Source: an uncultured Clostridia bacterium
Lineage (GTDB): Bacteria; Bacillota; Clostridia; Oscillospirales; CAG-382
Length of the DNA stretch: 64,000 nt
Direction: 5' to 3'
Assembly (NCBI GenBank): GCA_947630765.1
Contig: CANRIX010000009.1
Location: forward strand, 10,214-74,213
A model generated the notes under the pieces. That model was given only the letters and a program-made list of their open reading frames with translations. It did no database searches and was not told the DNA's origin. Position 1 is the first letter of the stretch. Each line of letters begins with the position of its first letter. The position numbers were made by a program, and so were the translations under genes. Shown here one piece after another: positions 23,311 through 38,326 of this stretch.

Positions 23311-23358
23311 AAGCCGTCGGCGTTCCTTCTCGAAGGGATGCCGACGGTTTGTGTTTGC
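23311..23358 (+). terminator. Rho-independent terminator after the ROK gene
   Basis: AAGCCGTCGGC / GCCGACGGTTT stem followed by a TTTGTGTTTG tail. Confidence 0.6.
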
Positions 23359-23441
23359 AGACAGGGGTCAAAAGGGGTTCGCTCCGAAAAAATTACATAC
23401 CTTTTCTTTTTTCGGGGCAAACTACCGAAAACAGGAAGGGA

Positions 23442-25622
23442 ATGGTTATGACCATGGAACAGCGAACCAACGAACGACGGTGGGAAGTCGTCATCCTCGC
23501 GGGCGGCATGGGGAGCCGGCTCGCGCCGATCACGGACGACCTGCCGAAACCCCTCGTGCCCGTCTGCGGCACGCCGGTGCTGACCCGGCTGACCGACTGC
23601 CTCAAGCGGAACGGCTGGAAGGACGCGCTGCTGACCGTCTGCGCCCTGCCGGAGGCGTTTGATCTCTACCGCGACCCCAATATCGAGCTGGAAACCGTCA
23701 AGGGCAGCGTTCCGCTCGGGAGCGCCGGGAGCGTGCGGGCGGTCCGCGACAGGCTTGCGGACACGATTCTGGTGATCTCCGGCGACACCGTGACCGATTT
23801 CGACCTGCGTCGCGCCTACGAACGGCATAAAAAGGAGCGCCGGCTCGCGACCATCCTGCTGACCCACGCGGAAGCGCCCGGGGAATTCGGGGTGGTCACG
23901 CTGGACGGGAGCCGCATCGTCGGCTTTTCCGAAAAGCCCTCGTGGCGGGACACGGCGTCGGATCTGGTGTCGACCGGCATCTACCTGCTCGACCGCTCGC
24001 TGCTCGACGAGGTGCCGGAGGGCATAAAGTTCGATTTCGGGCGGGACCTGTTTCCCCGCCTGCTGAAGCGCGGGATCGAGGTGTTCGGCGAGGTCCTGCC
24101 GGGGCACTGGTGGGACGTCGGCACGCCGGAAAGCTACTACCGCTGCTGCATGGCGCTGTCCGACGGGCAGACGGTCACGGGGCAGGAATGCGCGATCTCC
24201 CTGGACGCGACGGTCCGCGCGAGCGTCCTGCATGACCGGGTTTCGGTCGGGAGCGGCTCGCGGGTGGAGGGAAGCATCCTCTGTTCCGGCGTGCGGGTCG
24301 GGGAAGGCTGTACGGTGCCGCCCGGTTGCGTGATCGGGGAGAATACCGTGCTGGAGGACGGCGCGTCGCTGAAAGCCGGGGTGCGCCTGAAGGGCGGACT
24401 GCTGGTCGGGAAGAACGCGTCGGTGGGCGAACGGTACGTTTTCGGTGCGCTGGACAGGCGCTGGTTCGGCGACGAGCAGATCCAGGGCGACCGGGCGGAG
24501 CTGGACAGCAGTTTCTGCCTGCGGCTGGGGCGCGCTTTGAAAACGCCGGGGCGGGAACTGAAGCTCGGCGTCCTGCACGGGCCGTCTGCCGGGAGCCGCC
24601 TGTACGCGGAACTGCTCTCACGCGGGGCGCAGGACGCGGGCGCGAAGGTCTGGGAGCTTGGGGACGGGTTCCCGGCGGTCATCTCGTTCGCCGTGCGGCA
24701 GTACGAATTGGATCTGGCGGTGTTCGTCGACCTGCGCGAGAGCGTCGGACGGGTGCGGTTCTGGTTCTGTGACCGCAGCGGACTGCCGCTGACGCGGGAA
24801 GCCCAGCGGGACATCGAATCCCGCCTGCGCGGCGAGCAGTACGACCGCTGCATCACGCCGCAGCCCGCCGTATTCCCGGACGGCGAGGACCGGGTGCTGC
24901 GCCGGTACTGCGTATGGCTGCAGGAGCAGGTCGGTTCGCTTTCCGGGGTAAAATTTTCCGTCACGCGGCGGGACGACGCCGGGGAATTCCTGTTCTCCAA
25001 CGCGAAGGAACTGGGCGCGGACGTCTCCTACGGGGAGAGCGAGGACAACTTCACGGTGTCCCCGGACGGGCGCCGCGCCTGCGCCTACACCCGTTCTGGC
25101 AAGCCGTTGACCTACTGGCACCTCGTCGCCCTCGCGGCCGCCGAAAGCGACGAGCGGAAGGTCTACCTGCCCGCACGCCTGCCGAAAACCGTCGAGGACT
25201 ACCTGCGGAATATGGGCAAGGAGCTGCGCCTGTACGCCGACGGGCGGGACGAGGTCCGCACGCATATGGAAGAGCAGCCGTCGAACAGCCCGTACGTCAA
25301 CGACGGCGTCCTACTCTGCCTGACCGTCGCGAAGCGCCTGCAGGAGCGGAAGGTTTCGCTGGATGAAGCGTTGAGCGCCCTGCCCGCGTTCTTCGTCTGC
25401 CGGCGGGAATTGCCGGTCGTTCCCGCGACCGAAGCCGCCGACCGCCGCGCTTCGCGCATCGCGGCGCTGACGCAGAAGGATACCTTCCCGGCACGAGTGT
25501 TCTGGCCGACCGGGTGCGTGACCGTCTTCCCGAACGCCGCAGGCGGATACACCCTGCTCGCTGAAGCGTCCGGCTGGGAGACCGCCGAGGAGCTCTGCGC
25601 GGAAACCGAAAAACTGCTGTAA
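23442..25622 (+). CDS. Bifunctional-type sugar-1-phosphate nucleotidyltransferase with a phosphohexomutase-like C-terminal region
   Basis: ATG at 23442 after AGGAAGGG. The N-terminus VVILAGGMGSRLAPITDDLPKPLVP is the NTP-transferase signature, followed by left-handed beta-helix-like repeats and a long C-terminal region. Confidence 0.75.
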   Translation: MVMTMEQRTNERRWEVVILAGGMGSRLAPITDDLPKPLVPVCGTPVLTRLTDCLKRNGWKDALLTVCALPEAFDLYRDPNIELETVKGSVPLGSAGSVRAVRDRLADTILVISGDTVTDFDLRRAYERHKKERRLATILLTHAEAPGEFGVVTLDGSRIVGFSEKPSWRDTASDLVSTGIYLLDRSLLDEVPEGIKFDFGRDLFPRLLKRGIEVFGEVLPGHWWDVGTPESYYRCCMALSDGQTVTGQECAISLDATVRASVLHDRVSVGSGSRVEGSILCSGVRVGEGCTVPPGCVIGENTVLEDGASLKAGVRLKGGLLVGKNASVGERYVFGALDRRWFGDEQIQGDRAELDSSFCLRLGRALKTPGRELKLGVLHGPSAGSRLYAELLSRGAQDAGAKVWELGDGFPAVISFAVRQYELDLAVFVDLRESVGRVRFWFCDRSGLPLTREAQRDIESRLRGEQYDRCITPQPAVFPDGEDRVLRRYCVWLQEQVGSLSGVKFSVTRRDDAGEFLFSNAKELGADVSYGESEDNFTVSPDGRRACAYTRSGKPLTYWHLVALAAAESDERKVYLPARLPKTVEDYLRNMGKELRLYADGRDEVRTHMEEQPSNSPYVNDGVLLCLTVAKRLQERKVSLDEALSALPAFFVCRRELPVVPATEAADRRASRIAALTQKDTFPARVFWPTGCVTVFPNAAGGYTLLAEASGWETAEELCAETEKLL

Positions 25623-25629
25623 CGCCGTA

Positions 25630-25666
25630 AAAGCCCCCGAAAAGCGGTCGCTTTTCGGGGGTTTTG
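25630..25666. terminator. Bidirectional intrinsic terminator (host side)
   Basis: CCCCCGAAAAGC (25634-25645) pairs with GCTTTTCGGGGG (25650-25661). It is flanked by an A-run upstream and a T-run downstream. Confidence 0.7.
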
Positions 25667-25792
25667 CAGACCTGAAAACGAACAGGTCAAATTTCCCACG
25701 GGGAGCCGTTGGAGATAACGTTGACACCGTCGGATTCGTTCGTTTTCGGAATGCTGCATCTTGCCGAACAGATGGGGTGGGGTACATAAAAG

Positions 25793-25830
25793 AAGTCAGC
25801 CGATTGGGGAAAATTCTCAATCGGCTGACT
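25793..25830 (-). terminator. Possible terminator for the island minus-strand block
   Basis: AGTCAGCCGATTG / CAATCGGCTGACT 13-bp stem. On the minus strand it is followed by CTTCTTTTAT. It lies about 170 nt downstream of the stop at 26001. Confidence 0.4.
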
Positions 25831-26000
25831 TGCGTTTGCTCTAATGACCCCCTTTGCCGTACAAGTTTTGAACATCTTACTGACTGCTTTTTCTGTGACT
25901 TAATCCACTTTAGTCAAACAGCTTCGCGTCCGTTATGATAGATTCCCCAAAAAACAATAACACACTTTCGCGACGATTTATCATTACACCACAATATGAT

Positions 26001-29000
26001 TTAAGATGTTTGTTTGATTTTAGACTTCACAATATCTAAGCTCTTGCGGTCTTGATTTGTTTCATAAAACCCGCGAATTACCTGCTGCATGGTTTCATCG
26101 AACCAAAAGATTTTTAATTTTTCTTTGGCTCTTGTAATCGCGGTATAAAAGATGCCGTGCGTTATTTTTTCGGCATTGGCAGAAGGAATAAGAATTTTCA
26201 CCGAGTTAAATTCCAAACCTTGAGCCTTATGGATTGATACTGCATAAGCAAGATGAAACGGAATAACCGTGCGTAGCCGCATTTCGTCCTGCTTTTCAGC
26301 TGGAGCCTTTGGATCATATTGATATACCGTAAACCGAACGCGCGTTTCTTCGCCAAACGTATCAATATATTCAACGTCTGTTCCGAAAAAGTGACTTTCT
26401 GTCAAAATAGTCCCTATATCTACGGTAAATGTAATGCTGTGATTGTCTTTTTTTATGTCGGCAATTCTCCCTTTCAAATTATTATAGAACATGGGAAATC
26501 GAGGTGCATTACTGAAAAGAATCGGATCACCGATTTTGTACTTCCATTCTTGCCATTCAAAAGCTTCGCTTTGCTTATTTAGGCTCTGGAAATATTTATT
26601 AATGTTGTTCAAACCAAACTTCCCGTCATAGTTCAAGCACAATATAACTTCGTCTTCTTCCTCTCTATGAAAAATATTTTCCCCGATTTTTTCAGAAAAC
26701 GGACCCTCAAAGACGAGTTTTCAGTTATCATCCCTTTGTTTCGAACTTCGTCCCACAAATTGATGAGTTCTTGCTTTTCGGTTCGCCATGTGGTCAGAAG
26801 TTCCACATTGACACCTGGCGCCTTTACCAATTCTTTCGCATAAGAAAACCAATTTCCAAAATCGATTGATTCAATCTGATAAGTATCCCCCGCCAAAACC
26901 AGAAAAGAATCCTCGTTGATTTTGCTCAACAATCTTCTCATCGTGCGATTGTCAATCGTACTGCATTCGTCAACAAAGATGACATCGTAATCTTTCAAAT
27001 TTACTTTGCGCGTAAAGCTGTCAATACTGATAAAATCATGTTCTGTTCCGGGATTGTCAATACGAGCTTTCAAATTTTGTAGTGCTGTATGTGTCTTCGT
27101 TAAAAACAGCTTGCTTCGATCATTCATCATATTGGAAAGATAATTAATCAAAGTCGTTTTGCCGGTTCCGGCAGCGCCGTATATCAACAAAATACGGGAA
27201 TTTACAAAAGCAGTTGTCAAAGCCTGTTTTTTCAACGGATCCGTAATATTGTTTTCCTGGCGTTTCACAAATTGCCGGTTAAATGCTTCTTGCCCTTTGT
27301 TGCCAATAGACGACAGTTCCAAAAGCTTTTTGATAATAAACAAAGTATCCTCTTCATAAAAGTCAATACAGGTAAATCCGTTTTCTCTTTTGATCTTATA
27401 CCCGTTTTTCAGCTCCCAATCACTGAGACTTTCATTAAATTTATCAATAGATCCTTCTGAAAAAATTGTTTCGTCAAAATAAATTTCGCCAGTTTGACGT
27501 ATCAAGCTTTTCAATTTTATAAACGGACTCATTTCATCCAGTTTACTGTCGCCCGCGGCTTTTAATATATTTTTCAAATTTCCGATTTCGTTTGTTCGAC
27601 TGCCGGGAAGATTAGAGATAAAAGGATTCCGTTCAAACGGGATACATTTCGTAGATAGAAGAAATTGGTCGCATAAACATTTTGGAGTAAACTGTGAAAC
27701 CATTACATTCTCCAGCGTTTCTTCTTTTAATTCGATCAATAAATATCTTATCGTGTTGTATCCAACGCTTTTTGAACCTTCTGCGAAATTTTTTCTCAAG
27801 TAAAGAAGGACATCCTTAAAACAAGCAGTATTGCAGTTTTGATAAATCTGATTGACAATATCATGAAACTGAAGTTCCCTTAAATCAATCAAAGATAAAA
27901 GATCAATACCCGTAGTAGTTAAAAAATTCATAAGTGCCGCATATTCTCCGTAATTTGAACTAAGCTTAGCAGAAAAACGAAACAGAATTTTTGTCAACTT
28001 ATTCAGGCACGCCGGCTCAATTGATACTTTCCAACCGGATATGATTTTGATTTCCGATGGAACATCCCACAATTTTATAGGAACTTCTTGATAGGATATC
28101 TCAATGGAGTAGTTTGTAGAAATATTCTCTTTGGTATAAACCGTGATTCGGTTATATTTCGTAGCATATATTCCCGCCAGTTGCAATGTCATCTCATAAT
28201 ACCGCTCAGTTCCAACAAAGAACGATGCTTTTTTCTGAATGTAATAGCGGTCATGGCTGGCTTTTTCAACATAACAAGGGGTATTTTCTATTATTTGAGC
28301 AACTGCTTTATAATACTCCTCATCAGCAGGATCCTCCTGATTTCGTGGGAATCTTTCTAAATTATGCAATACCGATATTCCATATTTTTTCTTTAAGAAA
28401 TCTCTGATTTGCCAAAGAAATTCATAATATTTCAACATTAGGCGTTCCGCCTGCCCTTCGTCGGGGATACGTCCTCCTATATATTTAAGAGATTTCAAAA
28501 AAGCTCCTAAATACTTGGTGCGTATATCCAGCAATGATTGTTCCCATGCCAGACTAAGGCTCACTTTGTCCTGATTGTGGCTTAATGCATTCAATATAAG
28601 TGTTGCTTTGCAAAGATCCTCCAAACGAGTCAAAATCCGCTTTGAGATATTATCGCGTGTTTCATTGCAAATGTCCATTCGGTCAATACTCTCTGTGATT
28701 TGTAGATCGCAGGACTTGATAATTTCAACTGCATCTTTTTTGGAATAGCTCGAATTGTTCAGCTCTCTGATAAAGGCATGTCGATCAATAATATCAATGA
28801 GTTCTTCGCAAAACCGTTCCACACTTTCATCCGTATTTTTAATTTCTTCTTCTGAAGAAAAAGAAATCGTTACACTTTCTTTTCCAAAATCTATGCCGTT
28901 CAAAAAGCTAACCGACATATATTTCCAAAACACTCGTTCCATTCCTCGATTGTCCGGGTGGAGTACTACAAATAAAATACAGGGATCAAATGTAACGGGC

Positions 29001-29311
29001 TGATAAGCAAAAGCGGGGAACGCCAGACTTTTCAGACAGTATTTGATTTTTCCATCAACTTCTGAATAACAGGTTGTTCCCTTTATTTGCACAAATAGGT
29101 TTTGACTTGGCCGGCGGCTGATATTCGGATTTTCCACAAACTCAAACGTCCCATCCGTATTTGGCCAGCTGTCTGTACTGGAAAAATGCGGATTGATTCT
29201 CCCGTCAGACCTTAAAAAAGATTCTAAAACGGAAACAGCAGAACGGTCTTCGGCAGATCGTTCCGTATGTGTTTTAATGTGACGTTGAATCACTTCAATT
29301 TGGTTATCCAT
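26001..29311 (-). pseudogene. N-terminal PD-(D/E)xK-like (DUF4365-like) domain fused to a C-terminal Dda/RecD-like SF1 helicase, about 1100 aa. It is split by one frameshift.
   Basis: The 892-aa ORF carries helicase motifs I GAAGTGKTT, II DVIFVDECS and III LAGDTYQ. The 213-aa ORF carries motifs V/VI (AVSIHKAQGLEFNSV, YTAITRAKEKL). The downstream frame is open back to 26706, so the two frames overlap at 26633-26706. The shift probably lies at the T6 run at 26687-26692 or just upstream. Confidence 0.75.
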
Positions 29312-29379
29312 ACACTTTACCCTCCTTAAAAGAGCGGTTTTCGATTAAGATAGCTTTTAATTCTATTAGATGTTTACAG

Positions 29380-30660
29380 TCAGGACTCCGTATCCAATTT
29401 CAAAAATCCCTGTTCAAAAGCACCGGGGAATTGAAATCTTTTATCCATACCGCCGAATACGACAACGATAATTCCTCCGTCAATGCCCTTGACCTGCCCT
29501 GCGCCAAATGCCTTGTGTGTGACAATAGTGCCCGCGCGAACTTTAGAAGTGTCTACCTTTATTGTCGCTTTCTTTGCAGACGGCGCGGGAACAGATGTAG
29601 GGGGTACGTAAGACGGACGATAGGTACCGCCCGTAGATGGCTTTGTATCATGCACAATCGGCGTTCGCTTTACATCATATTTCACTTTCGGCTCCGCCAT
29701 CAGCAAATCTTCTTCATCTTCGTCTTCATCTTCATCAAAATTGGAGCTGACGTTTGTAAATACCGGTCTTTCAGGAAGATCGTCTTCTGACGGTGCGTCT
29801 GCTTGCATGGAAGAAGCAAGTTGTCCCGCCATCGCGTCATAATCCGCGCTGGAAATGACGGTACTGTACAGACCCACATCCTCTCCGGAATGCTTGTCAA
29901 TACCCGTATAAATCAGGCTTGCGTCTTCATACCGCTTAAATTTATAAACGGCGTCATTCATCAAAGCCTCATTGAACACATTCAAGGAAACAAGCAGCTC
30001 AAAATCTTTCACATTCAGACCGGTGACTTTTTTGAAAAGCTCCGGCTCCAGCTGCGTGATGACATCCTGTAAGCTGTATTCCCGATAGTCCGTCAGATAC
30101 ATGAACACAGGCACACGGGTCGCCAACTTAATCAGTTTCTCCTGAATCATTTTCCGCTTCGATTTATATTCCTTCTCGGCGTCTGTCAGCTCTTTCTTCT
30201 CTTTTGGCGTCAATTTCTCTCCGTCACGCTTGGCTTTCTTTACGGCATTGGACTTATTGATAATCGTTTCAATATCCGAATTCAAACTACGGAAGCCTTC
30301 AATACGCATGAGTGCGTCCATGGCTTCCTCGCCGGCAAGCAACCTCGCAAGCGTGTCATTGTCTACATTAATAAGCAGCGCGGATTCCCAACGCTTGGCG
30401 AGCAGCGTCGCGGAAGTACCGGCCATAGCAATATCCAAAATCTCAGCGGCGTTGACCTGCCGCATGGCGCTTCCGTCATAGGCAAGCACAGGCAGGAAAT
30501 TGATAAACTCCCCGACCTTCTTTTCAGGGTTGCTCTCCGCCACATTCAGGCGGCAGCTGTAATCGGAAATCTGACGAAGCGCACGGTCAAGGGCGAAATC
30601 AAAGACATAACATTCCTTTCCATGGATTGTTCTGATAATTTTTTCACTTTGTGAAGAATA
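29380..30660 (-). pseudogene. C-terminal fragment of about 420 aa from an SF2 helicase/restriction (Res-like) protein with a Tudor-like tail. The 5' helicase core is missing.
   Basis: The frame is open upstream of the annotated GTG through ...IHGKECYVFDFALDRALRQISDY, which resembles the segment after helicase motif VI. There are no motifs I-VI upstream because that space encodes the methyltransferase in another frame. The C-terminus VTHKAFGAGQVKGIDGGIIVVVFGG...FLKL resembles the UvrD/PcrA C-terminal Tudor-like domain. Confidence 0.6.
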
Positions 30661-31619
30661 CCTACTGCCTCGTTGTATCGAATAAAGGTATCACATCCTT
30701 TTTCAAGCAAAGGACGGCTAACCGGTCCCAACACTTCGTTTCCTTTATGAGAATATACAGCACAGATTCCGGCATTATCTCTATCCCACAGGAAGTACGA
30801 CACACCACCTTTAATTTGAACACCAGTGAAACAATCGGATGCTTCAGGAAAATCATGAATAATTCGCAAATGATTATCGTGTAACATCTCATCACGATAT
30901 TCGTCAAGGCCTTTCCCACCTGTGAACCATCTTGATGGGGTAATCATAGAAATAAACCTTGGATTCAATTTCTTAGCACCTTGGACAAATAGTTGATATA
31001 TAGGCTTTGCACTTGCGCCATTTCCACCTCCGTCATTTAATTGATATGGCGGATTACTGATTATCACGTCAAACTTCATCTTAAATATTTCCTCCGGCTT
31101 TATGGTATGTATCCATTCATAGGCGTGAGTTTCGAGTCCTGCCTCGCGGTCGTATTCCTTTTGCGACGCCCCGCAGAACACACATCGCCCGTCTTTCCAT
31201 CTGTGCTGAATATTCTTAAAGCGTATATTCCCGTCAACCGTATCAAAGTGCGTCACGGAATAATTTCCGTTTGCCGTCTTGGAACAATACAGACTGCGTC
31301 GCGAGAGGTGAGCGGTCAGCTCCGTGATGGAAATGCCGTAAAGCTGATGTTTGAAAATGTGGTCAGTCCGCTCTTGAAGGTCAGGATAAATCGGCTCAAG
31401 ACCATCGAGAAGCCGCTTCGCTATTTCCCGCAAAAATACGCCGCTCTTTGCAGTCGGGTCTAAAAACGTGGTGTTTGGATCGCTGAACAATTCCTGCGGC
31501 AGAAGGTCGAGCATGGCGTTTGCTACTTCCGGCGGGGTGAACACCTCGTCGTTTGACAGATTGGCAACACAGGACAGCACGTCCGGGTTATACATTGTAT
31601 TATAGAGATTATTTGCCAT
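30546..31619 (-). CDS. N6-adenine DNA methyltransferase (Eco57I-like, NPPY type), possibly 3'-truncated
   Basis: FTPPEVANAMLDLLP (motif X), FLDPTAKSGVFLREI (motif I) and DVIISNPPYQ (motif IV). Confidence 0.8.
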   Translation of the reverse strand: MANNLYNTMYNPDVLSCVANLSNDEVFTPPEVANAMLDLLPQELFSDPNTTFLDPTAKSGVFLREIAKRLLDGLEPIYPDLQERTDHIFKHQLYGISITELTAHLSRRSLYCSKTANGNYSVTHFDTVDGNIRFKNIQHRWKDGRCVFCGASQKEYDREAGLETHAYEWIHTIKPEEIFKMKFDVIISNPPYQLNDGGGNGASAKPIYQLFVQGAKKLNPRFISMITPSRWFTGGKGLDEYRDEMLHDNHLRIIHDFPEASDCFTGVQIKGGVSYFLWDRDNAGICAVYSHKGNEVLGPVSRPLLEKGCDTFIRYNEAVGILHKVKKLSEQSMERNVMSLISPLTVRFVRFPITAAA

Positions 31620-32358
31620 ATTCCCAAACCCTCCTGTAATCGGTAATATAGGACGTCAGCAGTTCGCCTTCGTCGTCGGGCGAAACGTCAAACAAACTAA
31701 TCTGATAATCGCTTCCTGTTTTTTCTTCGCCGGCGGCTCATATTCGCCGGCGAGCAGTTTATCAAAGCGGAAGTCCTTGCGCTGCATTTTACTGCCCGTC
31801 ACGAACGCCCACTCGGAGAAAATGATAGGCTCGTCCGTGTCGTTTCCGTTTTCATCTACTTTTTTAAGACTCAATGCGTTGCCACAGACGATGTTCCTGC
31901 TCAAAATAAAGCGGACAGCGGCCCGACAGTCCTCACTTACTTCTTTTTTTGCAAACTGCCTCATATTCGGTGTTCCATATCTCATAAAGCCGCTCTCGGC
32001 AAGCGATAACGTTATCCATCATTAAGTCAACGCCGTAAATACTTGCCACGGCGATAACCGACTGCTTTTCAAATTCAAGAGGCAGAGGTTTCTTCTTTTT
32101 CGGCGGTGTAGAGCGCCTCTTTGCCGACTCCAGCTTGCGCCGGAGTATCTCAACCACAAAATTTCCATCGCCACAGGCAGGCTCTAAAAACCGGCTGTCC
32201 ACCCGTTCTGTCTCTTGTTTTACCAAATCGAGCATTGCGTTGACTTCGCGCTCAGCGGTAAACACTTCACCGAGATCCGCTACACGCTGCTTGGATTTCA
32301 CTTGCTTTATCGAAGATTTGCCTTCGATTGATTTTTCAGATAAATTCGTACTGTTCAT
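31609..32358 (-). pseudogene. Methyltransferase-fold protein with SAM motif I but no (N/D)PPY seen, interrupted by two homopolymer frameshifts
   Basis: GEVFTAEREVNAMLDLV, FLEPACGDGNF, IYGVDLMMDNV, NIVCGNALS. Three frames must be joined, at the T7 run at 31944-31950 and the T-run at 31718-31725. The last frame ends ...DYQISLFDVSPDDEGELLTSYITDYRRVWEYGK* and overlaps the ATG of the next gene. Confidence 0.6.
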
Positions 32359-32370
32359 GATGCTTTCCCC

Positions 32371-34236
32371 TTACCGGCAATCTGCCGCCACCGCCACCCG
32401 TTTTCCGCTGAACGCGACGCCGTATTTATATACGATTTTGACGCCCGCGGCGGTGAGCTCGGTGTCGTATTTTCTGTCGATGATCTGCTGCAGCGCGGCT
32501 TCTGACAGGCGTTTCAGCTCCGCGTCCGAGCAATTTTTGGCGGCTTTCAGCTCAATCAAAATGCCAGGTAGGTTTTTCTTTGCGGGTTTCAGCTGAATGT
32601 CATACCTACCGTCGCCGGACTCCCGGTTGGAGGAGACAAACGCCCCGCCGAGCAAGGCACAAAGGCCGAGCATGAAGCCGTGATAAAAATTTTCGCCCGC
32701 TGTATCAAAGGAGCTGACAGACTGGGTCAGCAGGGCTTGGATCAGGTCTTTCAGCCTGTCCTGATTGCCGGAGAAAATTGCTTCCTGAATGGAAATGGCG
32801 ACGGGCTGTGGAATGATGTCGTTCAGCTTTTGCAAAATTTCCTTGTGGTAGACGAGAGCAATTTCTTTGTTCGGCAGCGCCACCTCACACATAAAATCTC
32901 CGTTGAACGACGGCGTGGTTTTCAGTACTTTCAGGTAACCCGCCACCAGCAGGAAGCTGTAAATGGTGGACGGATTGTTTTTGATCTGCGGGTAAATCAC
33001 GCCCGTATCAATATAAGTCGTAAAAGACTGCCCGTTGACAAGGGAGATCAGCTTTTCGTAGATTTCCCGGTCTGCCTCCGCGATAATCTCGCCGATGATA
33101 TCATTGCTGCCGGTGGACTGCCAAAAGGCGCGCGGCTCACATTCGTTGTTGAAATAGTTAATCACCGACCAGGGGTTGAAAATCTCGGTTTTCCCGAAAC
33201 GATAGCCGTCGTACCATTGACAGAGTTCTTCGTATTTATCGGAAACGCCGTAGTAAGCCGCCATTTCCTTGACCTCTTCGGAGGTGAAGCCGAAATAGGC
33301 GCTGTATTTGTTATCTAGCACGGAATGAATGGTCAAATTATTCAGTCCGCTGAAAATGCTTTCCTTGGCCACACGGAGAATGCCCGTGAGAAACCCGTAT
33401 GACAGGTGCTTGTTGTCCTTCAGCCCGCCGGAAAAGAGGTTTCGCATAAAGAGAATCACGTTATCGTAGTAACCTCTCATGTAACCTTGCTGGATCGGGA
33501 TATCGTACTCGTCAATGATGATAATGGGCGCGACACCGTGATGCTTGTGGAGCATTCCTGACAGATTCAAAAGCGCGCCGGAAAGCTCGACCTCGCTCAC
33601 GTCACTGGAGAGCAGGTTTTCAAACGCCTTCTTTTCATATTCATTGCATTTGTCGGAGGCTTGCAGCTCGATATGGCGGGCCGCCTCTTTGGAAAAAACG
33701 TCCCGTATGGCCTCAAAGGTTTCTTCCCAAGTGTTGAACTTGATGTCCTTAAAGGTGATGAAGATCACCGGATATTTGCCTTGGCAGGCGCGGTATTTCT
33801 CGCCGCAGGCCCAAATCTTTTTGTCCTTGAAATATACGGATGTGTCTTCGTCGGTCTTTTCAAAAAAGGTGCGAAGCATATCCATATTCAGCGTTTTTCC
33901 GAACCGGCGCGGGCGGGTAAACAGAGACACCATCGGCTTTTCGTCGAGAAAATCCTTGATCATCATGGTTTTGTCGACGTAATAATATTCGGTGGACGCC
34001 AAGCGGTAGTCGGACACGCCGACCGGCAGCGGCAGCGCCGTTTTTCGGACGGTTTTTCGATAGGCTCCCGTCTTGACTCGTTTATCAATAGGTTTTTCTG
34101 CATCGGCGGGAATGACCCAATTCCTGCCGTCTTTTTTCGCCCCTGCAATGCGCCCCTCTTTGCAAAGCGTCGAAATCCTGCGTTCGCTGATATTCCAAAG
34201 GGCGGCGGCCTCTTTTGCGGACATGGTATTTGACAC
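32371..34236 (-). CDS. HTH (excisionase/MerR-like) + AAA-ATPase_like (PF09820-type) + PDDEXK_9 (PF08011-type) protein
   Basis: 621 aa. The N-terminus is AKEAAALWNISERRISTLCKEGRIAGAKKDGRNWVIP. YYYVDKTMMIKDFL...FTRPRRFGKTLNMDML is the predicted AAA-ATPase signature. The C-terminus GDGRYDIQL...ILIELKAA...AALQQIIDRKY is the PD-(D/E)xK signature. GTG start 7 nt after a GGAGG. Confidence 0.8.
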   Translation of the reverse strand: MSNTMSAKEAAALWNISERRISTLCKEGRIAGAKKDGRNWVIPADAEKPIDKRVKTGAYRKTVRKTALPLPVGVSDYRLASTEYYYVDKTMMIKDFLDEKPMVSLFTRPRRFGKTLNMDMLRTFFEKTDEDTSVYFKDKKIWACGEKYRACQGKYPVIFITFKDIKFNTWEETFEAIRDVFSKEAARHIELQASDKCNEYEKKAFENLLSSDVSEVELSGALLNLSGMLHKHHGVAPIIIIDEYDIPIQQGYMRGYYDNVILFMRNLFSGGLKDNKHLSYGFLTGILRVAKESIFSGLNNLTIHSVLDNKYSAYFGFTSEEVKEMAAYYGVSDKYEELCQWYDGYRFGKTEIFNPWSVINYFNNECEPRAFWQSTGSNDIIGEIIAEADREIYEKLISLVNGQSFTTYIDTGVIYPQIKNNPSTIYSFLLVAGYLKVLKTTPSFNGDFMCEVALPNKEIALVYHKEILQKLNDIIPQPVAISIQEAIFSGNQDRLKDLIQALLTQSVSSFDTAGENFYHGFMLGLCALLGGAFVSSNRESGDGRYDIQLKPAKKNLPGILIELKAAKNCSDAELKRLSEAALQQIIDRKYDTELTAAGVKIVYKYGVAFSGKRVAVAADCR

Positions 34237-34265
34237 GGTCGCACCTCCTCACAAGTATTGTGTAT

Positions 34266-34294
34266 AGTATAGCAGATTTCAAGAATAAAATCAA
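34266..34294 (-). promoter_or_regulatory. Putative sigma-A promoter of the island minus-strand block
   Basis: On the minus strand: TTGATT (34294-34289), a 17-nt spacer, then TATACT (34271-34266), about 30 nt upstream of the GTG at 34236. Confidence 0.5.
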
Positions 34295-34298
34295 TATC

Positions 34299-34339
34299 TA
34301 TCGGAACAATGTCAAATAAATTTTGATATTGTTCCGATA
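34299..34339. repeat. Perfect 12-bp inverted repeat next to the -35 box; candidate operator
   Basis: TATCGGAACAAT (34299-34310) and ATTGTTCCGATA (34328-34339), separated by 17 nt. Confidence 0.6.
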
Positions 34340-34848
34340 AAATGTTCTTTTGTGTGTTCTATGCGCGAGCGGGAAGAAAAACCACACTCATTTTCAAATG
34401 AAAAATGACAATCATTTAAAAAAGCAAACGGATTTCTATTGGATTTGTCTTGGATTTATGCCGTTCTTTTCGATAGGATTGCCTCCTCTCGTTTCGATAT
34501 GACGGGGACTCTCCCTTCGGAAGTCAGGCTCTTTTCGGCATGATTTCCTCTTCGTTATGACTAATCTGCTCCCTCATTTCGAGAGCAGGGGGGATTTCCC
34601 TCTTGTCATATCGGAAAGAACCTCATTTTCTTTGTCATTGAAAAGGGGTCTTTTTCAGTCAAAAAAAGAGCCTTGAAAAATGAATTTCCTATGCCCCACT
34701 TTTTGACTGAATTTTTTGAAAGAAAGTGAGCGTCCGAAAACGGAAGTCATAACAAAAAAGCTCTCGAAATTTGGTCCGTTTCGAAGAGAGGGTCATTCTT
34801 TCCAATTTTATGATAGAGGGTCGTAAATTCGGGGTAAAACCATAGTAA

Positions 34849-34916
34849 ACTTCGATTCTTGCCGAGTAAAACTTCGATTCTACCCCTTGCGAGTTCGATT
34901 CCAGCCCATTTTACCA
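34849..34916 (+). repeat. Three phased direct repeats A(C/G)TTCGATTC(T/C). The third lies inside a segment resembling a tRNA 3' end that finishes in ACCA.
   Basis: Copies at 34849-34859, 34871-34881 and 34892-34902, with 22- and 21-nt spacing. From 34894: TTCGATT + 5 nt + 7 nt + A + CCA reproduces T-loop-to-CCA spacing. Only 3 of 5 T-stem pairs form and there is no 5' half. Confidence 0.5.
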
Positions 34917-35040
34917 TCACGAATCCTAAAGGGGGCGTTTCCAGAATCCAAGTTGCACAAATTGGAAACGAAGTTGCACGCCTCGTGTTCCGACCGATTT
35001 TTGAGTCTGACGCGGACGTCGACCCGTGGTTCCAAACGAA

Positions 35041-35077
35041 AAGTAGGGGCATACCGCTCCTACTTATGCCCCTACTT
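35041..35077. other. Strong 12-bp hairpin; terminator-like on the minus strand
   Basis: AAGTAGGGGCAT (35041-35052) pairs with ATGCCCCTACTT (35066-35077). On the minus strand it is followed by TTTTCGTTTGG. Confidence 0.35.
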
Positions 35078-35254
35078 ACGCCCCTACCGTTTGGGAGCAT
35101 TGCCCCGCTAACATCTTCATCAAAAATCACCTCTTTTCTTGAAATATGTTTCCGCAAAAGTCAAACTCCTTTTGTCTTCTAAAAAAATCAGGAGGAATCG
35201 CAGCGGACTATTTTTCCGAAAAATGGAAAGACCAAAAGAGAAAGAGGTGAGAGC

Positions 35255-35504
35255 TTGCGGGTCGAAGTGAAGGAGAAACCGATTCGGGCAGCGTTTGTCT
35301 GGCTGAGTCGGGAGGAGGGGAAGAACGAAGCGCTGCTGCAATCGCTGAAGCCGCAATATGCGGCATGGAAAGCGCAGGGGTATTTGCCCGTGGTGATGGA
35401 ATCGGGTGCGGGAAATCCTAAAGACTGCCTGTACGGGCTGGTGAAGCACTACTGCGAGAAAAAAGGCAAAGGAGCAGACAAAAGACGAACGCCCACGCCG
35501 ATGA
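35255..35504 (+). CDS. Small hypothetical protein of the recombinase module; 3' end uncertain
   Basis: TTG start 7 nt after AGAGG. Sequence: ...KPIRAAFVWLSREEGKNEALLQSLKPQYAAWKAQGYLPVVMESGAGNPKDCLYGLVKHYCEKK. After the A6 run at 35459-35464 the track frame runs on to 35725. A neighbouring frame stops at 35504 (KKAKEQTKDERPRR*). Confidence 0.35.
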
Positions 35505-35641
35505 GCGGATGCCGAGCGCATCCGTTACATAAAAGTCACACTTCGGCTCTTGCTTTCCCGAGAAATTTTACGATACTACGATACAATGTTATCAAGATAA
35601 ATCTTATAAGAGCAATGTCGTTGTGTGCAAGGAGAAGTATT

Positions 35642-36494
35642 ATGGATAATTCGATACAGCTGTTTGAAGATCAACCAATCCGCATGGCGTGGGATTCGGA
35701 AAAAGAGGAATGGTATTTTCCGTAGTGGATGTGGTCGGGGTTTTGACCGAACAGCAGAATCTTGATGGCGCAAGAAATTACTGGAAAGTTTTAAAATCGC
35801 GTCTGTTAAAAGAGGGCGGCGAGTTGGTTACAAATTGTACCCAACTGAAAATGAAATCGCCCAAAGACGGAAAGCACTATCAAACCGATGTGGCCAATAC
35901 CGAACAACTCTTGCGCATTATCCAGTCCGTCCCGTTCAAAAAAGCCGAACCGTTTAAGCTGTGGCTCGCCAAGGTTGGCAAAGAGCGTCTCGAAGAAACC
36001 GTCGACCCGGAACAAGCCATCGATCGTGCGCTGGAAACGTATCTAAAAAAGGCTATTCCGCTGAATGGGTACACCAGCGCTTGCTGTCAATTCGCATCCG
36101 CAACGAATTAACCGACGAATGAAAAAAACGCGGCGTGGAAAAAGGGACGGAATACGCGATTTTAACCGACGACATCAGCAAGGCATGGTCAGGCATGACG
36201 ACGCGGCAGTATAAGAACTTGAAGGGGCTCAAAAAGGAAAATCTGCGTGACAATATGAGTGATACCGAGCTGGTATTAACCATGTTGGCAGAGACTGCTA
36301 CGCGTGACATTTCAAAATCTGAAAATCCAAACGGATTTAACGAGAGCCGCAAGGTAGCAACTCGCGGCGGCAAAATCGCCGGAAACGCCCGAAAGGAACT
36401 TGAATCCGAAATCGGCGAACCGGTAATTACGCCGAAAAACGCATCCGAACTCGGTCTTCTTGTCCGTGAATTGATTGAGGAGGGGAAGTCATGA
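35642..36494 (+). pseudogene. Bro-N / DinD-like (phage antirepressor-type) gene with two frameshifts and an in-frame TGA
   Basis: ATG at 35642 after GGAG. MDNSIQLFEDQPIRMAWDSEKEEWYF|SVVDVVGVLT... shifts at the T4 run at 35716-35719. ...ETYLKK|GYSAEWVHQRLLSIRIRNELTDE shifts at the A6 run at 36045-36050. TGA at 36120-36122 sits where W is expected (DE*KKRGVEKGTEYAILTDD). Confidence 0.75.
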
Positions 36495-38326
36495 GCGAAC
36501 CGTTTCAAATTGCGGGATATTGCCGCATTTCGGTGGACGAGGAGCTTGACTGCGACAACACCTCGATTGAAAACCAAAAATCCATCATCAGGGACTACGT
36601 ATCCCGCGCCTTTCCCGGCTCAAGCCTGACCTTTTACGAGAACCGTGACCGGTCGGGTTATACCTTCGAGCAGCGGGAGGGGTATCAGGCCATGCGACCG
36701 CTGCTGATGAATCACGGGTACGACGTTCTTGTCATCAAGGACTTTTCCCGCTTTTCCCGCCGCAACAGCCGGGGACTGGTGGAGCTGGAGGATCTGCGGG
36801 ACGCAGGACTGCGGATCATCTCGCTCGGCGACAGCATCGACTACCCCACCTATGACGACTGGACGGCGATCCAGCTCCGTTTCCTCGTCAACGAAATGCC
36901 GGTGACCGACGCGTCCAAAAAGGTCCGTTCGGTCATCAAACGTCGACAGGAGGACGGAAAGTGGATCTGCGCCGTGCCCTATGGTTACGTCATTACCAAC
37001 TCCAAGACCATGACCTTTGAGCCCGAACCCACCGAAGCGGAGGTGGTGCGGGAGATTTTTTCGCTGTATAACGACGGCTGGGGCTATAAGCGGATCGCGG
37101 AGCATTTGACCGACAAGCACATTCCTACGCCCCGCATGAACGAGCGCACCCGCAAGGAAGCCCGCGGCGAGGACTGTAAAATCAAGGCGCGTCCGGAATG
37201 GAGCATCGCCACGGTGCAGGGCATTTTGCAGAACGATTTTTACATCGGCACCCTGCGGCAGGGCAAATACACCCGCAAAAAAAACGGCGGCGACGTGAAA
37301 CGGGAGCAGGACGAGCATATCGTTTTTGAAAATCACCACGAGGCCATCGTGGACTATAAGACCTTCGCCGTCACAAAACAGTCGCTGAAAGTCCGCTCCA
37401 CCGGCAACTATCGCGGCGTGCGTAAGTATGACAACGTCTATTCGGGGCTGATGGAATGCGGCGACTGCGGCAGTCCCATGTTCCCCATGAGCCGCAAGGA
37501 CTTAAAAGAAGCCTACCGCTGCGGTACGTATCACCGGCGGGGGTTGAAAGGCTGCACCAGCCACCACATCCGGGTAAACGTGCTGGACGGACTGCTGAAA
37601 GAATATCTGCGCAAGGTGCTGGACGGCTCGGCGGATGATCAGAAAGTTGGAAAAACAGATCGCCGACGAGTCCTCCGCCGAAAAGCAGAACCGGGAAATA
37701 ATTTCCATTTTGGAACGCCAGCTTGCCGACGCAAAGAGGAGCTGAAAGTCCTTATCCGGCAAAAGACCCGCGAGGTGATGCGAAAGCCGGAAGAAGAGGC
37801 GCAAATCGAAGAAACCTACGGCGAGTTGATCGACGAGTGCCGTCTGCGGGCTGCGGGGCTGGAAAATCAAATCGCCCTCACCGCCGACAAGCGCAACACG
37901 ATCATTCGCGTCAACCGCATCGCGTCGACTGCGCTAGGGATCTTCGATGAGATCCTCGCACACGACCGCCTGGACAAGCGCGACTTGGAATTGCTGGTGG
38001 AGCGCATTTACGTCTATGAGGATCATATTCACATCAAGTCAAAACCCGATATAGAATGTATCCTGCAAAGCGGCGCGCTGCCGGAGGAAAACGGGTCGGA
38101 AGCCGCAAATTTTGATTCGGGCGTCATAGGTATCGCACAGACCCGCGCAGTCCAGACGAGCGCACACCGTCCGGACAAGGTCTATGGCGTCAATGTTATC
38201 AGCAGCGGCGACGGCGACGAAATGCGCACGAACGGCGTTATCCGCTTCCTTACGAGAGCATCCAGCCGGGATTCCCGAGGGAAACGTTGTCGCAGGTGTT
38301 CCCGTCCCCCGCGTCCCCGCAGGTGA
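36491..38326 (+). CDS. Large serine recombinase. The ORF stays open but about 35 codons in the coiled-coil region are out of their apparent native frame, and the 3' end reads into host DNA.
   Basis: The resolvase catalytic domain is YCRISVDEE...SIENQ...RDRSGYTFEQREG...FSRFSRR. It is followed by a recombinase domain and a zinc ribbon (CGDCGSPM...CGTYHRRGLKGCTSH). It overlaps the Bro gene stop by 4 nt. Confidence 0.85.
   Translation: MSEPFQIAGYCRISVDEELDCDNTSIENQKSIIRDYVSRAFPGSSLTFYENRDRSGYTFEQREGYQAMRPLLMNHGYDVLVIKDFSRFSRRNSRGLVELEDLRDAGLRIISLGDSIDYPTYDDWTAIQLRFLVNEMPVTDASKKVRSVIKRRQEDGKWICAVPYGYVITNSKTMTFEPEPTEAEVVREIFSLYNDGWGYKRIAEHLTDKHIPTPRMNERTRKEARGEDCKIKARPEWSIATVQGILQNDFYIGTLRQGKYTRKKNGGDVKREQDEHIVFENHHEAIVDYKTFAVTKQSLKVRSTGNYRGVRKYDNVYSGLMECGDCGSPMFPMSRKDLKEAYRCGTYHRRGLKGCTSHHIRVNVLDGLLKEYLRKVLDGSADDQKVGKTDRRRVLRRKAEPGNNFHFGTPACRRKEELKVLIRQKTREVMRKPEEEAQIEETYGELIDECRLRAAGLENQIALTADKRNTIIRVNRIASTALGIFDEILAHDRLDKRDLELLVERIYVYEDHIHIKSKPDIECILQSGALPEENGSEAANFDSGVIGIAQTRAVQTSAHRPDKVYGVNVISSGDGDEMRTNGVIRFLTRASSRDSRGKRCRRCSRPPRPRR

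What the first reader, a model, noticed from the sequence alone, without database searches (positions are those of the whole stretch)
26001..34339. Co-oriented five-gene block as a possible composite modification-plus-nuclease/helicase system
All cargo between 26001 and 34236 is on the minus strand, tightly spaced or overlapping. It sits behind one near-consensus promoter (34266-34294) and a 12-bp perfect palindrome. The order is:
1. HTH-AAA-ATPase_like-PDDEXK_9 protein.
2. Methyltransferase-fold protein without NPPY.
3. NPPY adenine methyltransferase.
4. SF2 helicase/Res-like C-terminus.
5. DUF4365-like-SF1 helicase.

Two different nuclease-fold proteins, two helicase lineages and a modification module in one transcription unit do not match the layout of any system I can name. 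It may be a stack of independent defence genes, or the remains of a larger multi-component system. Operon structure is an inference from spacing only.
Basis: inference. Interest (0 to 1): 0.65.

Follow-up and report, generated by a model that had tools for sequence, protein, structure and literature searches.

The report
Decayed defence island, not one system
The "five-gene system" is a stack of three unrelated defence modules on a mobile island: only the first gene is intact, and the other four are frameshifted or deletion-truncated remnants, so it is an ordinary decaying defence island and not a new composite system.

Summary
The block is not one system.

- **Three independent modules.** They sit on a ~12.5-kb low-GC island carrying a serine recombinase.
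- **Module 1 (32371-34236) is intact.** It encodes a 621-aa HTH/AAA-ATPase_like/PDDEXK_9 protein. The promoter and palindrome are this gene's own regulatory region, conserved upstream of its homologues in dozens of unrelated genomes.
- **Module 2 (29380-32358) is a wreck.** It derives from a widespread three-gene restriction-modification-like cassette: a 234-aa half-methyltransferase-like protein, a 515-aa Eco57I-family methyltransferase, and a ~990-aa T5orf172/GIY-YIG-SF2 helicase. Here the first gene has two frameshifts. A 2.3-kb deletion removed the methyltransferase C-terminus and the nuclease and motor of the third gene.
- **Module 3 (26001-29311) is broken.** It is the PADLOC single-gene candidate PDC-S53, interrupted by a 1-nt deletion in an A-run.
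- **Co-occurrence fails across modules.** 0/80 loci of 621-aa homologues carry the cassette, and 0/80 cassette loci carry the 621-aa gene or PDC-S53. Inside the cassette the partner genes are present in 68/68 and 59/59 testable loci.
- **A sister island has a different middle.** It carries an intact type I R-M system in place of the wreck.

Interest is low.

The parts
25666..38211 (.). Low-GC mobile island (~12.5 kb) carrying all the parts below. The left end lies between 25666 and 25706. The right end is at about 38211.
   Evidence: GC is 35-50% against ~63% in the flanks. DNA homology to the sister island L009 runs from window 38211 down to 25706, where the L009 locus ends. The terminator of the host gene is at 25630-25665. 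The sister copy sits at a different site, inside spoVT, so the element is mobile.
34299..34339 (.). Inverted repeat: 12-bp perfect outer arms, 18-nt arms at 94%. Operator-like element of the 621-aa gene.
   Evidence: The same ATT(G/A)TTCCGA box occurs at about -76 to -80 upstream of homologues, as inverted pairs or as direct repeats about 21 nt apart. The 12-mer (up to 2 mismatches) is present in 48/75 loci; the 10-mer core is present in 54/75 and in two or more copies in 30/75.
34266..34294 (-). Sigma-70-type promoter of the 621-aa gene (TTGATT, 17 nt, extended -10 TG-n-TATACT).
   Evidence: The alignment of 75 homologous upstream regions has consensus TTGACA and TATAAT at the same columns, followed by a GGAGG ribosome-binding site.
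32371..34236 (-). Intact 621-aa gene: HTH_17 (5-45), AAA-ATPase_like (71-295), PDDEXK_9 (514-616). It belongs to the DUF1703 family.
   Evidence: Pfam. Walker A G113-K114-T115, Walker B D242-E243 and nuclease D546/K564 are invariant, and E562 is nearly invariant, in 34 sequences that include two 38%-identical paralogues. dN/dS against L009 is 0.076. More than 8000 clusters of ~619 aa exist.
31612..32358 (-). Pseudogene of the 234-aa 'half-methyltransferase' (motif I present, no NPPY). Two frameshifts, at about 31939-31949 and between 31752 and 31689. It reads as ORFs of 141 aa and 109 aa.
   Evidence: tblastn of the intact L006 234-aa protein matches three segments in frames +3, +1 and +3. The intact gene lies upstream of the methyltransferase in 68/68 testable loci.
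30609..31619 (-). Truncated Eco57I-family N6-adenine methyltransferase: residues 1-337 of 515. NPPY is kept and the C-terminal ~180 residues are lost. The ORF then runs out of frame to 30546.
   Evidence: 95% identity to P0004 over residues 1-337 only. It covers PADLOC MTase_II profile positions 9-154 of 348, against 9-348 for the intact protein. blastn against L006.
30608..30617 (.). Deletion junction. About 2.3 kb is missing relative to the intact cassette.
   Evidence: Window 31641-30608 matches L006 9979-11012. Window 30617-29392 matches L006 13307-14523. Junction sequence CCATGGAAAG|GAATGTTATG.
29380..30617 (-). C-terminal remnant of a 994-aa T5orf172/GIY-YIG-ResIII (SF2) protein: residues ~587-992 at DNA level, read as a 387-aa ORF. 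The nuclease (17-110) and ResIII (127-291) domains are absent.
   Evidence: 87% identity to P0044 residues 612-992. Domain positions in P0044. No Pfam or PADLOC domain is found in the fragment itself.
26001..29311 (-). PDC-S53 (DUF4365-like N-terminus plus SF1B RecD-like helicase) broken by a 1-nt deletion in an A5 run at about 26718-26722. It reads as 892 aa + 213 aa.
   Evidence: PADLOC PDLC05035 matches at E 4e-180 (profile 6-682) and 1e-84 (profile 692-896). The only indel against the intact 1103-aa L009 gene is the missing A. All 120 listed homologues are ~1100 aa.
35255..36494 (+). PDC-S13-like Bro-N gene, split by frameshifts into three ORFs (35255-35725, 35689-36111, 36135-36494).
   Evidence: PADLOC PDLC04920 profile positions 28-136 and 165-275 fall on separate ORFs in different frames. 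Intact single-frame homologues are in L114, L134, L140 and L162. That a further frameshift joins the 35255-35725 ORF to the next one is read from the translations only. The region is absent from the sister island.
36491..38326 (+). Large serine recombinase of the island (Resolvase, Recombinase and Zn_ribbon_recom domains).
   Evidence: Pfam. 90% identical to the L009 recombinase over residues 1-581. dN/dS is 0.18.

Best explanation
The block is a mosaic defence island carried by a large-serine-recombinase element. It holds three modules that work, or once worked, independently.

1. **The 621-aa gene travels as a self-contained cassette.** The cassette is about 110 nt of operator-promoter plus the gene. 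The protein has an N-terminal HTH, a P-loop ATPase and a C-terminal PD-(D/E)XK nuclease. I infer that the HTH binds the repeated ATTGTTCCGA boxes that flank and overlap the -35 and so represses its own promoter. I also infer that the protein acts as an ATP-dependent nuclease against DNA, in defence or as an addictive/selfish gene.
2. **The 141/109/357/387-aa ORFs are dead remains of one R-M-like cassette.** In its intact form the Eco57I-family methyltransferase marks host DNA, and the T5orf172/GIY-YIG-SF2 helicase protein translocates on and cuts unmarked DNA. This is inferred by analogy with Type ISP and Type III enzymes. One deletion spanning the 3' end of the methyltransferase gene and the 5' two-thirds of the nuclease-helicase gene removed both activities at once. 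The upstream 234-aa gene then picked up two frameshifts.
3. **PDC-S53 is a stand-alone nuclease-helicase candidate.** A -1 frameshift separates its two RecA-like halves.

The tight spacing reflects insertion of swappable cassettes between the 621-aa gene and PDC-S53, not functional coupling. Shown here: the anatomy, the lesions, the co-occurrence statistics and the conservation of the promoter/operator. Inferred: autoregulation, the biochemical activities and the loss of function.
For: Intact cassette:
- The 234-aa, 515-aa and 994-aa genes are adjacent in L006-L008.
- The deletion is mapped to the base. The frameshifts are mapped.
- The same lesions occur in four independently assembled metagenome contigs, L001-L004.

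Co-occurrence:
- 80 genome loci of 621-aa homologues (69-95% identity): 0 with the cassette and 1 with PDC-S53.
- 80 metagenome loci of the methyltransferase (55-82% identity): the 234-like gene is upstream in 68/68 and the 994-like gene downstream in 59/59 testable loci. The 621-aa gene is in 0/80 and PDC-S53 in 0/80.
- Neighbours of 621-aa homologues share no family beyond 11/80 loci, and that family is an ABC transporter. No family occurs in more than 2 of 64 immediate downstream genes.
- PDC-S53 homologues sit in five different defence or integrase contexts and never beside the other two modules.

Sister island L009:
- Same recombinase, same 621-aa gene and an intact PDC-S53, with a type I hsdM/S/R system between them. 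Homology breaks fall within the last 18 nt of the 621-aa gene and 14 nt into PDC-S53.
- dS is 0.33 for the 621-aa gene and recombinase but 0.05-0.075 for PDC-S53, so the island has a mosaic history.

Promoter and operator:
- Both are conserved with the 621-aa gene. DNA homology never reaches more than 113 nt upstream or past the stop codon.

Known profiles:
- PADLOC profile PDLC03626 ('REase_MTase_IIG', 1359 positions) covers the helicase protein (positions 152-809) and the methyltransferase (863-1359). A fused version is therefore already classed as an R-M enzyme.
Against: - No expression, methylation or phage-challenge data exist, so co-transcription from the single promoter is neither shown nor excluded.
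- dN/dS of the remnants against intact relatives is still low (0.04-0.17). This fits recent inactivation but does not prove loss of function.
- The two halves of PDC-S53 could in principle reassemble.
- The order 621 gene / R-M cassette / PDC-S53 recurs in both island variants. That leaves room for loose cooperation between whatever R-M is present and its flanking genes.
- The role of the 621-aa family is unknown (PMC6387759), and my structure model of it failed.
Confidence: 0.85

Rival explanations
1. One functional composite operon, as the first reader proposed in the headline. The HTH-ATPase-nuclease, the two methyltransferase-fold proteins, the helicase C-terminal protein and the DUF4365-helicase would act together as a new multi-component modification/restriction system.
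For: The genes are co-oriented and tightly spaced behind one strong promoter. No convincing terminator lies at the gene junctions. Weak PADLOC hits of three different genes to MADS components mad1, mad2 and mad8.
Against: Four of the five genes are fragments of longer, conserved genes. There is no co-occurrence across modules. The sister island has a type I R-M in place of the cassette. The MADS hits score 16-25 bits on generic HTH, SAM-binding or P-loop segments, and NCBIfam MAD2 scores 24.5 bits against a cut-off of 720.
Confidence: 0.03
2. The remnants keep some function. The truncated methyltransferase would act as an orphan or regulatory enzyme, and the 892-aa and 213-aa halves of PDC-S53 would reassemble. 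Alternatively the A-run would be a phase-variable on/off switch.
For: The methyltransferase catalytic core, including NPPY, is intact up to residue 337. PDC-S53 carries a single lesion in a homopolymer, and both halves keep low dN/dS. Orphan methyltransferases left over from R-M relics are documented, for example DnmA in B. subtilis (PMC9973331).
Against: The part of the methyltransferase matching PADLOC MTase_II profile positions 155-348 is deleted. This is the C-terminal region that would carry target recognition. An A5/A4 run is short for slippage, and L001 and L002, the two contigs that span this gene, show the same broken state. The frameshift separates the Walker A/B domain from the UvrD_C_2 domain. 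A further variant, L005, has lost the cassette remnant and most of PDC-S53 altogether.
Confidence: 0.1
3. The frameshifts and the truncation are sequencing or assembly errors, and the genes are really intact.
For: The window and the related contigs come from low-coverage metagenome assemblies (3-4x). Homopolymer indels are a common error type.
Against: The identical ORF pattern (141/109/357/387/892 aa) recurs in four separately assembled samples at 98.3-99.98% identity. A clean 2.3-kb deletion cannot be a base-calling error. The 234-aa gene has two separate frameshifts.
Confidence: 0.02

Closest known systems
Single-polypeptide helicase-methyltransferase restriction enzymes: PADLOC/REBASE-derived class 'REase_MTase_IIG' (profile PDLC03626). 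Functionally closest are Type ISP enzymes such as LlaGI and LlaBIII.
   Same: The ancestral cassette has an SF2 helicase-like motor plus a gamma-class N6-adenine methyltransferase. These align to profile positions 152-809 and 863-1359. Nuclease + motor + methyltransferase is the Type ISP logic (PMC3553950, title and abstract seen).
   Different: Here the activities are split over separate genes and accompanied by a conserved 234-aa extra protein. The nuclease is T5orf172/GIY-YIG-like, whereas the LlaBIII abstract describes an Mrr endonuclease. No sequence match to any solved structure was found. In the window itself the nuclease, the ResIII motor domain and the methyltransferase C-terminus are deleted.
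dnmA-yeeB-yeeC cluster of Bacillus subtilis and Vibrio crassostreae (MmeI-like methyltransferase, SF2 helicase, T5orf172 protein)
   Same: It combines the same three activities (adenine methyltransferase, SF2 helicase, T5orf172 domain) in a conserved, horizontally acquired cluster. The B. subtilis copy is described as a non-functional R-M relic that keeps a methyltransferase. Mutants of the Vibrio homologues became more phage-sensitive (PMC9973331).
   Different: Here the helicase and T5orf172 domains are fused in one ~990-aa protein, the methyltransferase is of the Eco57I Pfam family, and the gene order differs. Direct homology to YeeA/B/C was not tested because no sequences were at hand.
PADLOC phage-defence candidate PDC-S53 (single-gene candidate)
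   Same: The 892-aa and 213-aa ORFs together cover profile positions 6-896 of 900 at E 4e-180 and 1e-84. Intact relatives are ~1100-aa stand-alone genes in varied defence islands.
   Different: The window copy is frameshifted. I found no paper that names PDC-S53, so its defence role remains a prediction.
DUF1703 family (AAA-ATPase_like PF09820 + PDDEXK_9 PF08011)
   Same: The 621-aa protein has the same two-domain core with conserved Walker A/B and D-E-K residues. The family is horizontally spread, forms paralogue expansions and has no established function (PMC6387759; PMC1913061, listed). A review lists PF09820 in RADAR RdrA (PMC10952713).
   Different: This subfamily adds an N-terminal HTH_17 and carries a conserved operator-promoter. 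No PADLOC model matches it apart from a weak hit on the HTH.

Membership tests
Helicase-methyltransferase R-M enzymes (PADLOC PDLC03626; Type ISP-like) | N6-adenine methyltransferase catalytic core (motif I plus NPPY) | tested here: met
   The 357-aa ORF scores Eco57I PF07669 at 3.7e-37 and carries DVIISNPPYQ. PDLC03626 positions 863-1161 match at 3.7e-30.
Helicase-methyltransferase R-M enzymes (PADLOC PDLC03626; Type ISP-like) | Complete methyltransferase including the C-terminal (target-recognition) half | tested here: not met
   Only residues 1-337 of 515 remain. MTase_II profile positions 155-348 are absent.
Helicase-methyltransferase R-M enzymes (PADLOC PDLC03626; Type ISP-like) | SF2 helicase-like ATPase motor | tested here: not met
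   The ResIII domain (residues 127-291 of the intact 994-aa protein) lies inside the deletion. The 387-aa remnant has no helicase domain hit.
Helicase-methyltransferase R-M enzymes (PADLOC PDLC03626; Type ISP-like) | Endonuclease domain | tested here: not met
   The T5orf172/MUG113 (GIY-YIG-like) domain at residues 17-110 of the intact protein is deleted in the window.
PADLOC PDC-S53 | Sequence match to the family profile over its full length | tested here: met
   Profile positions 6-682 (E 4.4e-180) and 692-896 (E 1.2e-84) of 900.
PADLOC PDC-S53 | One uninterrupted ~1100-aa polypeptide carrying both helicase RecA-like domains | tested here: not met
   A 1-nt deletion at about 26722 splits it into 892 aa + 213 aa. 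Relatives are 1097-1131 aa.
DUF1703 (AAA-ATPase_like + PDDEXK_9) | Both Pfam domains above their gathering scores, in N-to-C order | tested here: met
   PF09820 scores 134 bits (cut-off 26.1) at residues 71-295. PF08011 scores 60 bits (cut-off 25.5) at residues 514-616.
DUF1703 (AAA-ATPase_like + PDDEXK_9) | Conserved Walker A/B and PD-(D/E)XK catalytic residues | tested here: met
   G113-K114-T115, D242-E243, D546 and K564 are invariant, and E562 is at least 90% conserved, in alignment A2.
MADS (methylation-associated defence system, mad1-8) | Proteins reaching family-level scores for MAD components | tested here: not met
   mad1 scores 16 bits, mad2 18-25 bits and mad8 22 bits, all on generic segments. 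NCBIfam MAD2 scores 24.5 bits against a cut-off of 720.
A single multi-gene defence system (any) | Components co-occur in other genomes beyond one lineage | tested here: not met
   0/80, 0/80 and 1/80 across modules, against 68/68 and 59/59 within the three-gene cassette.
A single multi-gene defence system (any) | Co-transcription as one operon | not testable with these tools
   Only spacing and consensus scans are available. RNA-seq is needed.

The most novel reading that the evidence does not exclude
The one intact gene, the 621-aa HTH/AAA-ATPase_like/PD-(D/E)XK protein with its own conserved triple-box operator-promoter, may be an autonomous single-gene nuclease module that is missing from current defence catalogues. 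It would be self-repressed and spread horizontally, acting in anti-phage defence or as an addictive selfish gene. Close copies (69-95% identity) occur in MAGs labelled as Firmicutes, Bacteroidota, Spirochaetes and Proteobacteria, though bin assignments of short contigs may be wrong. It stays under strong purifying selection (dN/dS 0.076) while four of the island's other genes (five ancestral genes in all) have decayed.
Probability: 0.3. Interest if true: 0.5.

Novelty: new member of a known kind. Interest (0 to 1): 0.2.

Why it matters
Mostly as a caution. Tight, co-oriented ORFs with defence-type domains behind one promoter can be a graveyard of unrelated modules and not a new system. Comparison with intact relatives resolves this quickly.

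Three smaller points may be worth keeping:
- The intact three-gene cassette is very widespread and has strict synteny. Its conserved 234-aa 'motif I only' partner has no described role that I could find.
- This cassette seems to be lost through deletions that take out the methyltransferase 3' end and the nuclease 5' end together. There are three independent junctions: the window, P0001 and P0002. That is what one would expect if losing the methyltransferase alone is lethal.
- The HTH-DUF1703 gene with its conserved operator is an easy candidate for experimental testing.

Tried and rejected
- **Megablast of the whole island against plasmid and phage collections:** no match.
- **tRNA scan:** none found. 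**Rfam on the island:** nothing. **Repeat search for att-like or cassette-flanking repeats:** only the operator palindrome and a host terminator. The swap junctions show no shared recombination site.
- **PDB sequence searches:** nothing usable for the 994-aa, 515-aa or 621-aa proteins, or for a 34-sequence profile of the 621-aa family.
- **AlphaFold2 model of the 621-aa protein:** poor (mean pLDDT 45.6, pTM 0.37). The only homologues I could supply were at least 81% identical, so I ran no fold search.
- **Viral-contig scan with PDC-S53:** no relatives.
- **Plasmid hit for the helicase protein (pCRULAC2):** the gene was isolated next to transposon genes, which told me nothing about the cassette.
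- **Insertion in spoVT, as in the sister island:** no spoVT fragments at the window's island ends.
- **MADS membership:** considered because of weak mad1/mad2/mad8 hits, and rejected on scores.
- **A transposon-like unit around the 621-aa gene:** homology to other loci ends within 113 nt upstream and before the stop codon, so no shared sequence flanks the gene that could hold terminal repeats.
- **My early guess that PDC-S53 was evolving neutrally:** wrong once the out-of-frame tail was excluded (dN/dS 0.04-0.17).

Full report
**Observation**

Between 26001 and 34236 every long ORF is on the minus strand, with gaps of 2-68 nt or overlaps. The region is part of a 35-50% GC stretch in a ~63% GC genome.

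The promoter-like site is at 34294-34266 on the minus strand (TTGATT, 17 nt, TG-n-TATACT). The palindrome TATCGGAACAAT/ATTGTTCCGATA is at 34299-34339, with 18-nt arms at 94% complementarity. A consensus promoter match here is not above chance by itself: 22 sites were found against 16.7 +/- 3.8 in shuffles.

- HTH_17 + AAA-ATPase_like + PDDEXK_9 in the 621-aa protein.
- Eco57I/N6_Mtase with NPPY in the 357-aa ORF.
- SF1 helicase N-terminal domains, with a borderline DUF4365, in the 892-aa ORF.

The '5 genes' are in fact seven ORFs: 621, 141, 109, 357, 387, 892 and 213 aa.

**The lesions**

*Genes 3 and 4.* I searched with the 357-aa and 387-aa ORFs joined.
- The methyltransferase is normally 515 aa (P0004, 95% identical).
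- The 387-aa ORF is only the C-terminal ~40% of ~985-aa proteins annotated as GIY-YIG nuclease family proteins. They carry T5orf172, MUG113 and ResIII domains and are 84-87% identical to the ORF.
- In a rabbit-gut Clostridia MAG the intact genes lie side by side as 234 aa / 515 aa / 994 aa (L006-L008).
- blastn of the window against L006 gives two collinear blocks. Window 31641-30608 matches L006 9979-11012 at 93%. Window 30617-29392 matches L006 13307-14523 at 87%. This means a 2,295-bp deletion, with junction CCATGGAAAG|GAATGTTATG.
- The deletion removes methyltransferase residues 338-515 and residues 1-586 of the 994-aa protein. That takes out its T5orf172 domain (17-110) and its ResIII domain (127-291).

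*Gene 2.* The 141-aa and 109-aa ORFs are one homologue of the 234-aa gene, read in frames +3, +1 and +3. It therefore has two frameshifts.

*Gene 5.* The 892-aa and 213-aa ORFs match one PADLOC profile, PDC-S53, at positions 6-682 and 692-896 of 900.
- Against the intact 1103-aa gene of a sister island (L009) the only indel is one missing A in an A5 run at about window 26722.
- All 120 listed relatives are about 1100 aa.

*These are not read errors.* The same ORF pattern recurs in four separately assembled metagenome contigs at 98.3-99.98% identity. The recombinase-proximal PDC-S13-like Bro-N gene (35255-36494) is frameshifted too. Only the 621-aa gene, and apparently the recombinase, are whole.

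*From the 621-aa side.* I examined 80 loci from different genomes (69-95% identity), each with up to 10 kb of flank on both sides.
- None contains the 234-, 515- or 994-aa genes.
- One (L009) contains PDC-S53 and the same recombinase.
- Clustering all neighbours gives no family in more than 11/80 loci, and that one is an ABC transporter.
- Among 64 immediately downstream genes, no Pfam or PADLOC family occurs more than twice. The list includes type I and type III methyltransferases and AbiEii (two each), but also glycoside hydrolases and other housekeeping genes.

*From the methyltransferase side.* I examined 80 metagenome loci (55-82% identity) from many habitats.
- The 234-like gene is upstream in 68/68 loci that have room for it.
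- The 994-like gene is downstream in 59/59 loci that have room for it.
- The 621-aa family is in 0/80 and PDC-S53 in 0/80.

*From the PDC-S53 side.* Five distinct contexts were found: type I R-M plus an AAA_15/21 ATPase, SRA-HNH, PLD-ResIII-DUF3427, tyrosine integrases, and the sister island. None has the other two modules outside the sister island.

Genes 2-4 are therefore one conserved cassette. Gene 1 and gene 5 are each independent.

**The sister island**

L009 comes from the same MAG as L006 but from another contig. Its layout is: recombinase, then the 621-aa homologue, then hsdM, a 188-aa ORF, hsdS and hsdR, and last an intact PDC-S53.

Homology to the window breaks 18 nt before the 621-aa stop codon and resumes 14 nt into PDC-S53. 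The R-M slot between these two genes is exchangeable.

Synonymous divergence is 0.33 for the 621-aa gene and the recombinase but only 0.05-0.075 for PDC-S53. The island is a mosaic.

In L009 the recombinase ORF runs into a SpoVT_C domain, so that copy sits inside spoVT. The window copy is intergenic. The element is therefore mobile.

**Promoter and palindrome**

In 75 upstream regions of 621-aa homologues the same layout recurs:
- an inverted pair of ATT(G/A)TTCCGA boxes just upstream of a TTGACA -35;
- a further TTCCGAA half-site immediately after the -35;
- a TATAAT -10 and a GGAGG ribosome-binding site.

The 10-mer core is present in 54/75 loci and in two or more copies in 30/75. The 12-mer with up to 2 mismatches is present in 48/75.

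DNA homology between the window and these loci never starts more than 113 nt upstream and never passes the stop codon. The promoter and palindrome are thus part of the 621-aa gene cassette. The simplest reading, which is an inference, is autorepression through the N-terminal HTH.

**How the parts most likely work**

*Module 1.* It is a DUF1703-type protein. Walker A/B and nuclease D546/K564 are invariant, and E562 is nearly invariant. dN/dS is 0.076. I infer an ATP-controlled nuclease. Its biological role is unknown in the literature (PMC6387759), and a review lists PF09820 in RADAR RdrA (PMC10952713).

*Module 2, ancestral form.* The PADLOC profile PDLC03626, a fused 'Type IIG' restriction enzyme-methyltransferase, aligns to the helicase protein at positions 152-809 and to the methyltransferase at 863-1359. 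The cassette is therefore a split relative of helicase-methyltransferase restriction enzymes. In logic it resembles Type ISP enzymes and the dnmA-yeeB-yeeC cluster (PMC9973331). In the window its nuclease, its ResIII motor domain and the methyltransferase C-terminal half are gone.

*Module 3.* It is a nuclease-like domain fused to an SF1B helicase. It is a predicted single-gene defence candidate, here split between its two RecA-like halves.

*Timing.* Low dN/dS of all the remnants against intact relatives (0.04-0.17) indicates that the lesions are recent. Variant L005, if it is not an assembly chimera, has already lost window 32308-26842.

**Novelty and verdict**

Every component except the 621-aa gene matches an existing PADLOC profile. 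Interest is low (0.2). Residual points of interest:
- the conserved 234-aa partner of the cassette: it has a canonical motif I FLEPACGxGNFL and no motif IV, while the methyltransferase has FLDPxCKSGVFLR plus GNPPYQL;
- the recurrent methyltransferase-to-nuclease deletions in other MAGs (P0001 and P0002);
- the uncharacterised, self-contained HTH-DUF1703 gene.

Noticed in passing
L009:6370-8544 (minus strand); compare window 36491-38326: In the sister island the serine recombinase ORF (724 aa) continues into a SpoVT_C domain (residues 598-723, E 3e-33). That copy is therefore inserted inside the sporulation regulator gene spoVT, like the skin or SPbeta type of intervening element. The window copy is intergenic.
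   Followed up: partly
window 35255-36494; L114:3000-3695, L134:2472-3539, L140:1983-2669, L162:2739-3434: A PDC-S13-like Bro-N gene is frameshifted in the window. Intact copies lie embedded between the methyltransferase and GIY-YIG-helicase genes of other cassettes. 12 of 59 cassettes have a 0.4-2 kb insert at that position.
   Followed up: partly
L006:9307-10011 and L089-L168 (upstream of each methyltransferase); window 31612-32358: The 234-aa partner gene is present in 68/68 testable cassettes. It keeps a canonical SAM-binding motif I (FLEPACGxGNFL) but has no catalytic motif IV. The adjacent 515-aa methyltransferase has an unusual motif I (FLDPxCKSGVFLR) plus GNPPYQL. This may be a two-protein methyltransferase, but that is not tested.
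   Followed up: partly
P0001 (904 aa), P0002 (1150 aa); window 30608-30617: Two other MAG proteins are in-frame fusions of the methyltransferase N-terminus to the helicase protein: residues 252|309 in P0001 and 207|65 in P0002. With the window junction this makes three independent deletions spanning the methyltransferase 3' end and the nuclease 5' end. That fits safe simultaneous loss of both R-M activities. Misassembly is not excluded.
   Followed up: partly
L005:1-3261 (window 35371-32308 joined to 26842-26668): A low-coverage metagenome contig joins the end of the 621-aa gene region directly to the interior of PDC-S53. This is a 5.5-kb deletion variant that lacks the whole cassette remnant. 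It could be a chimera.
   Followed up: no
window 32371-34345 and L009-L088: The 621-aa gene plus about 110 nt of upstream sequence occurs at 69-95% protein identity in MAGs labelled Firmicutes, Bacteroidota, Spirochaetaceae, Succinivibrio and Actinomycetes, with unrelated flanks. How this single-gene cassette moves is unexplained. Some bin labels may be wrong.
   Followed up: partly
window 34340-35250: About 900 nt between the 621-aa promoter and the Bro-N pseudogene has no convincing ORF and no Rfam match. It is nonetheless conserved at ~91% with the sister island.
   Followed up: no
window 25630-25665: A GC-rich hairpin followed by a T-run lies directly after the 757-aa host gene (23349-25622). 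It is probably that gene's terminator, and it marks the left limit of the island.
   Followed up: no
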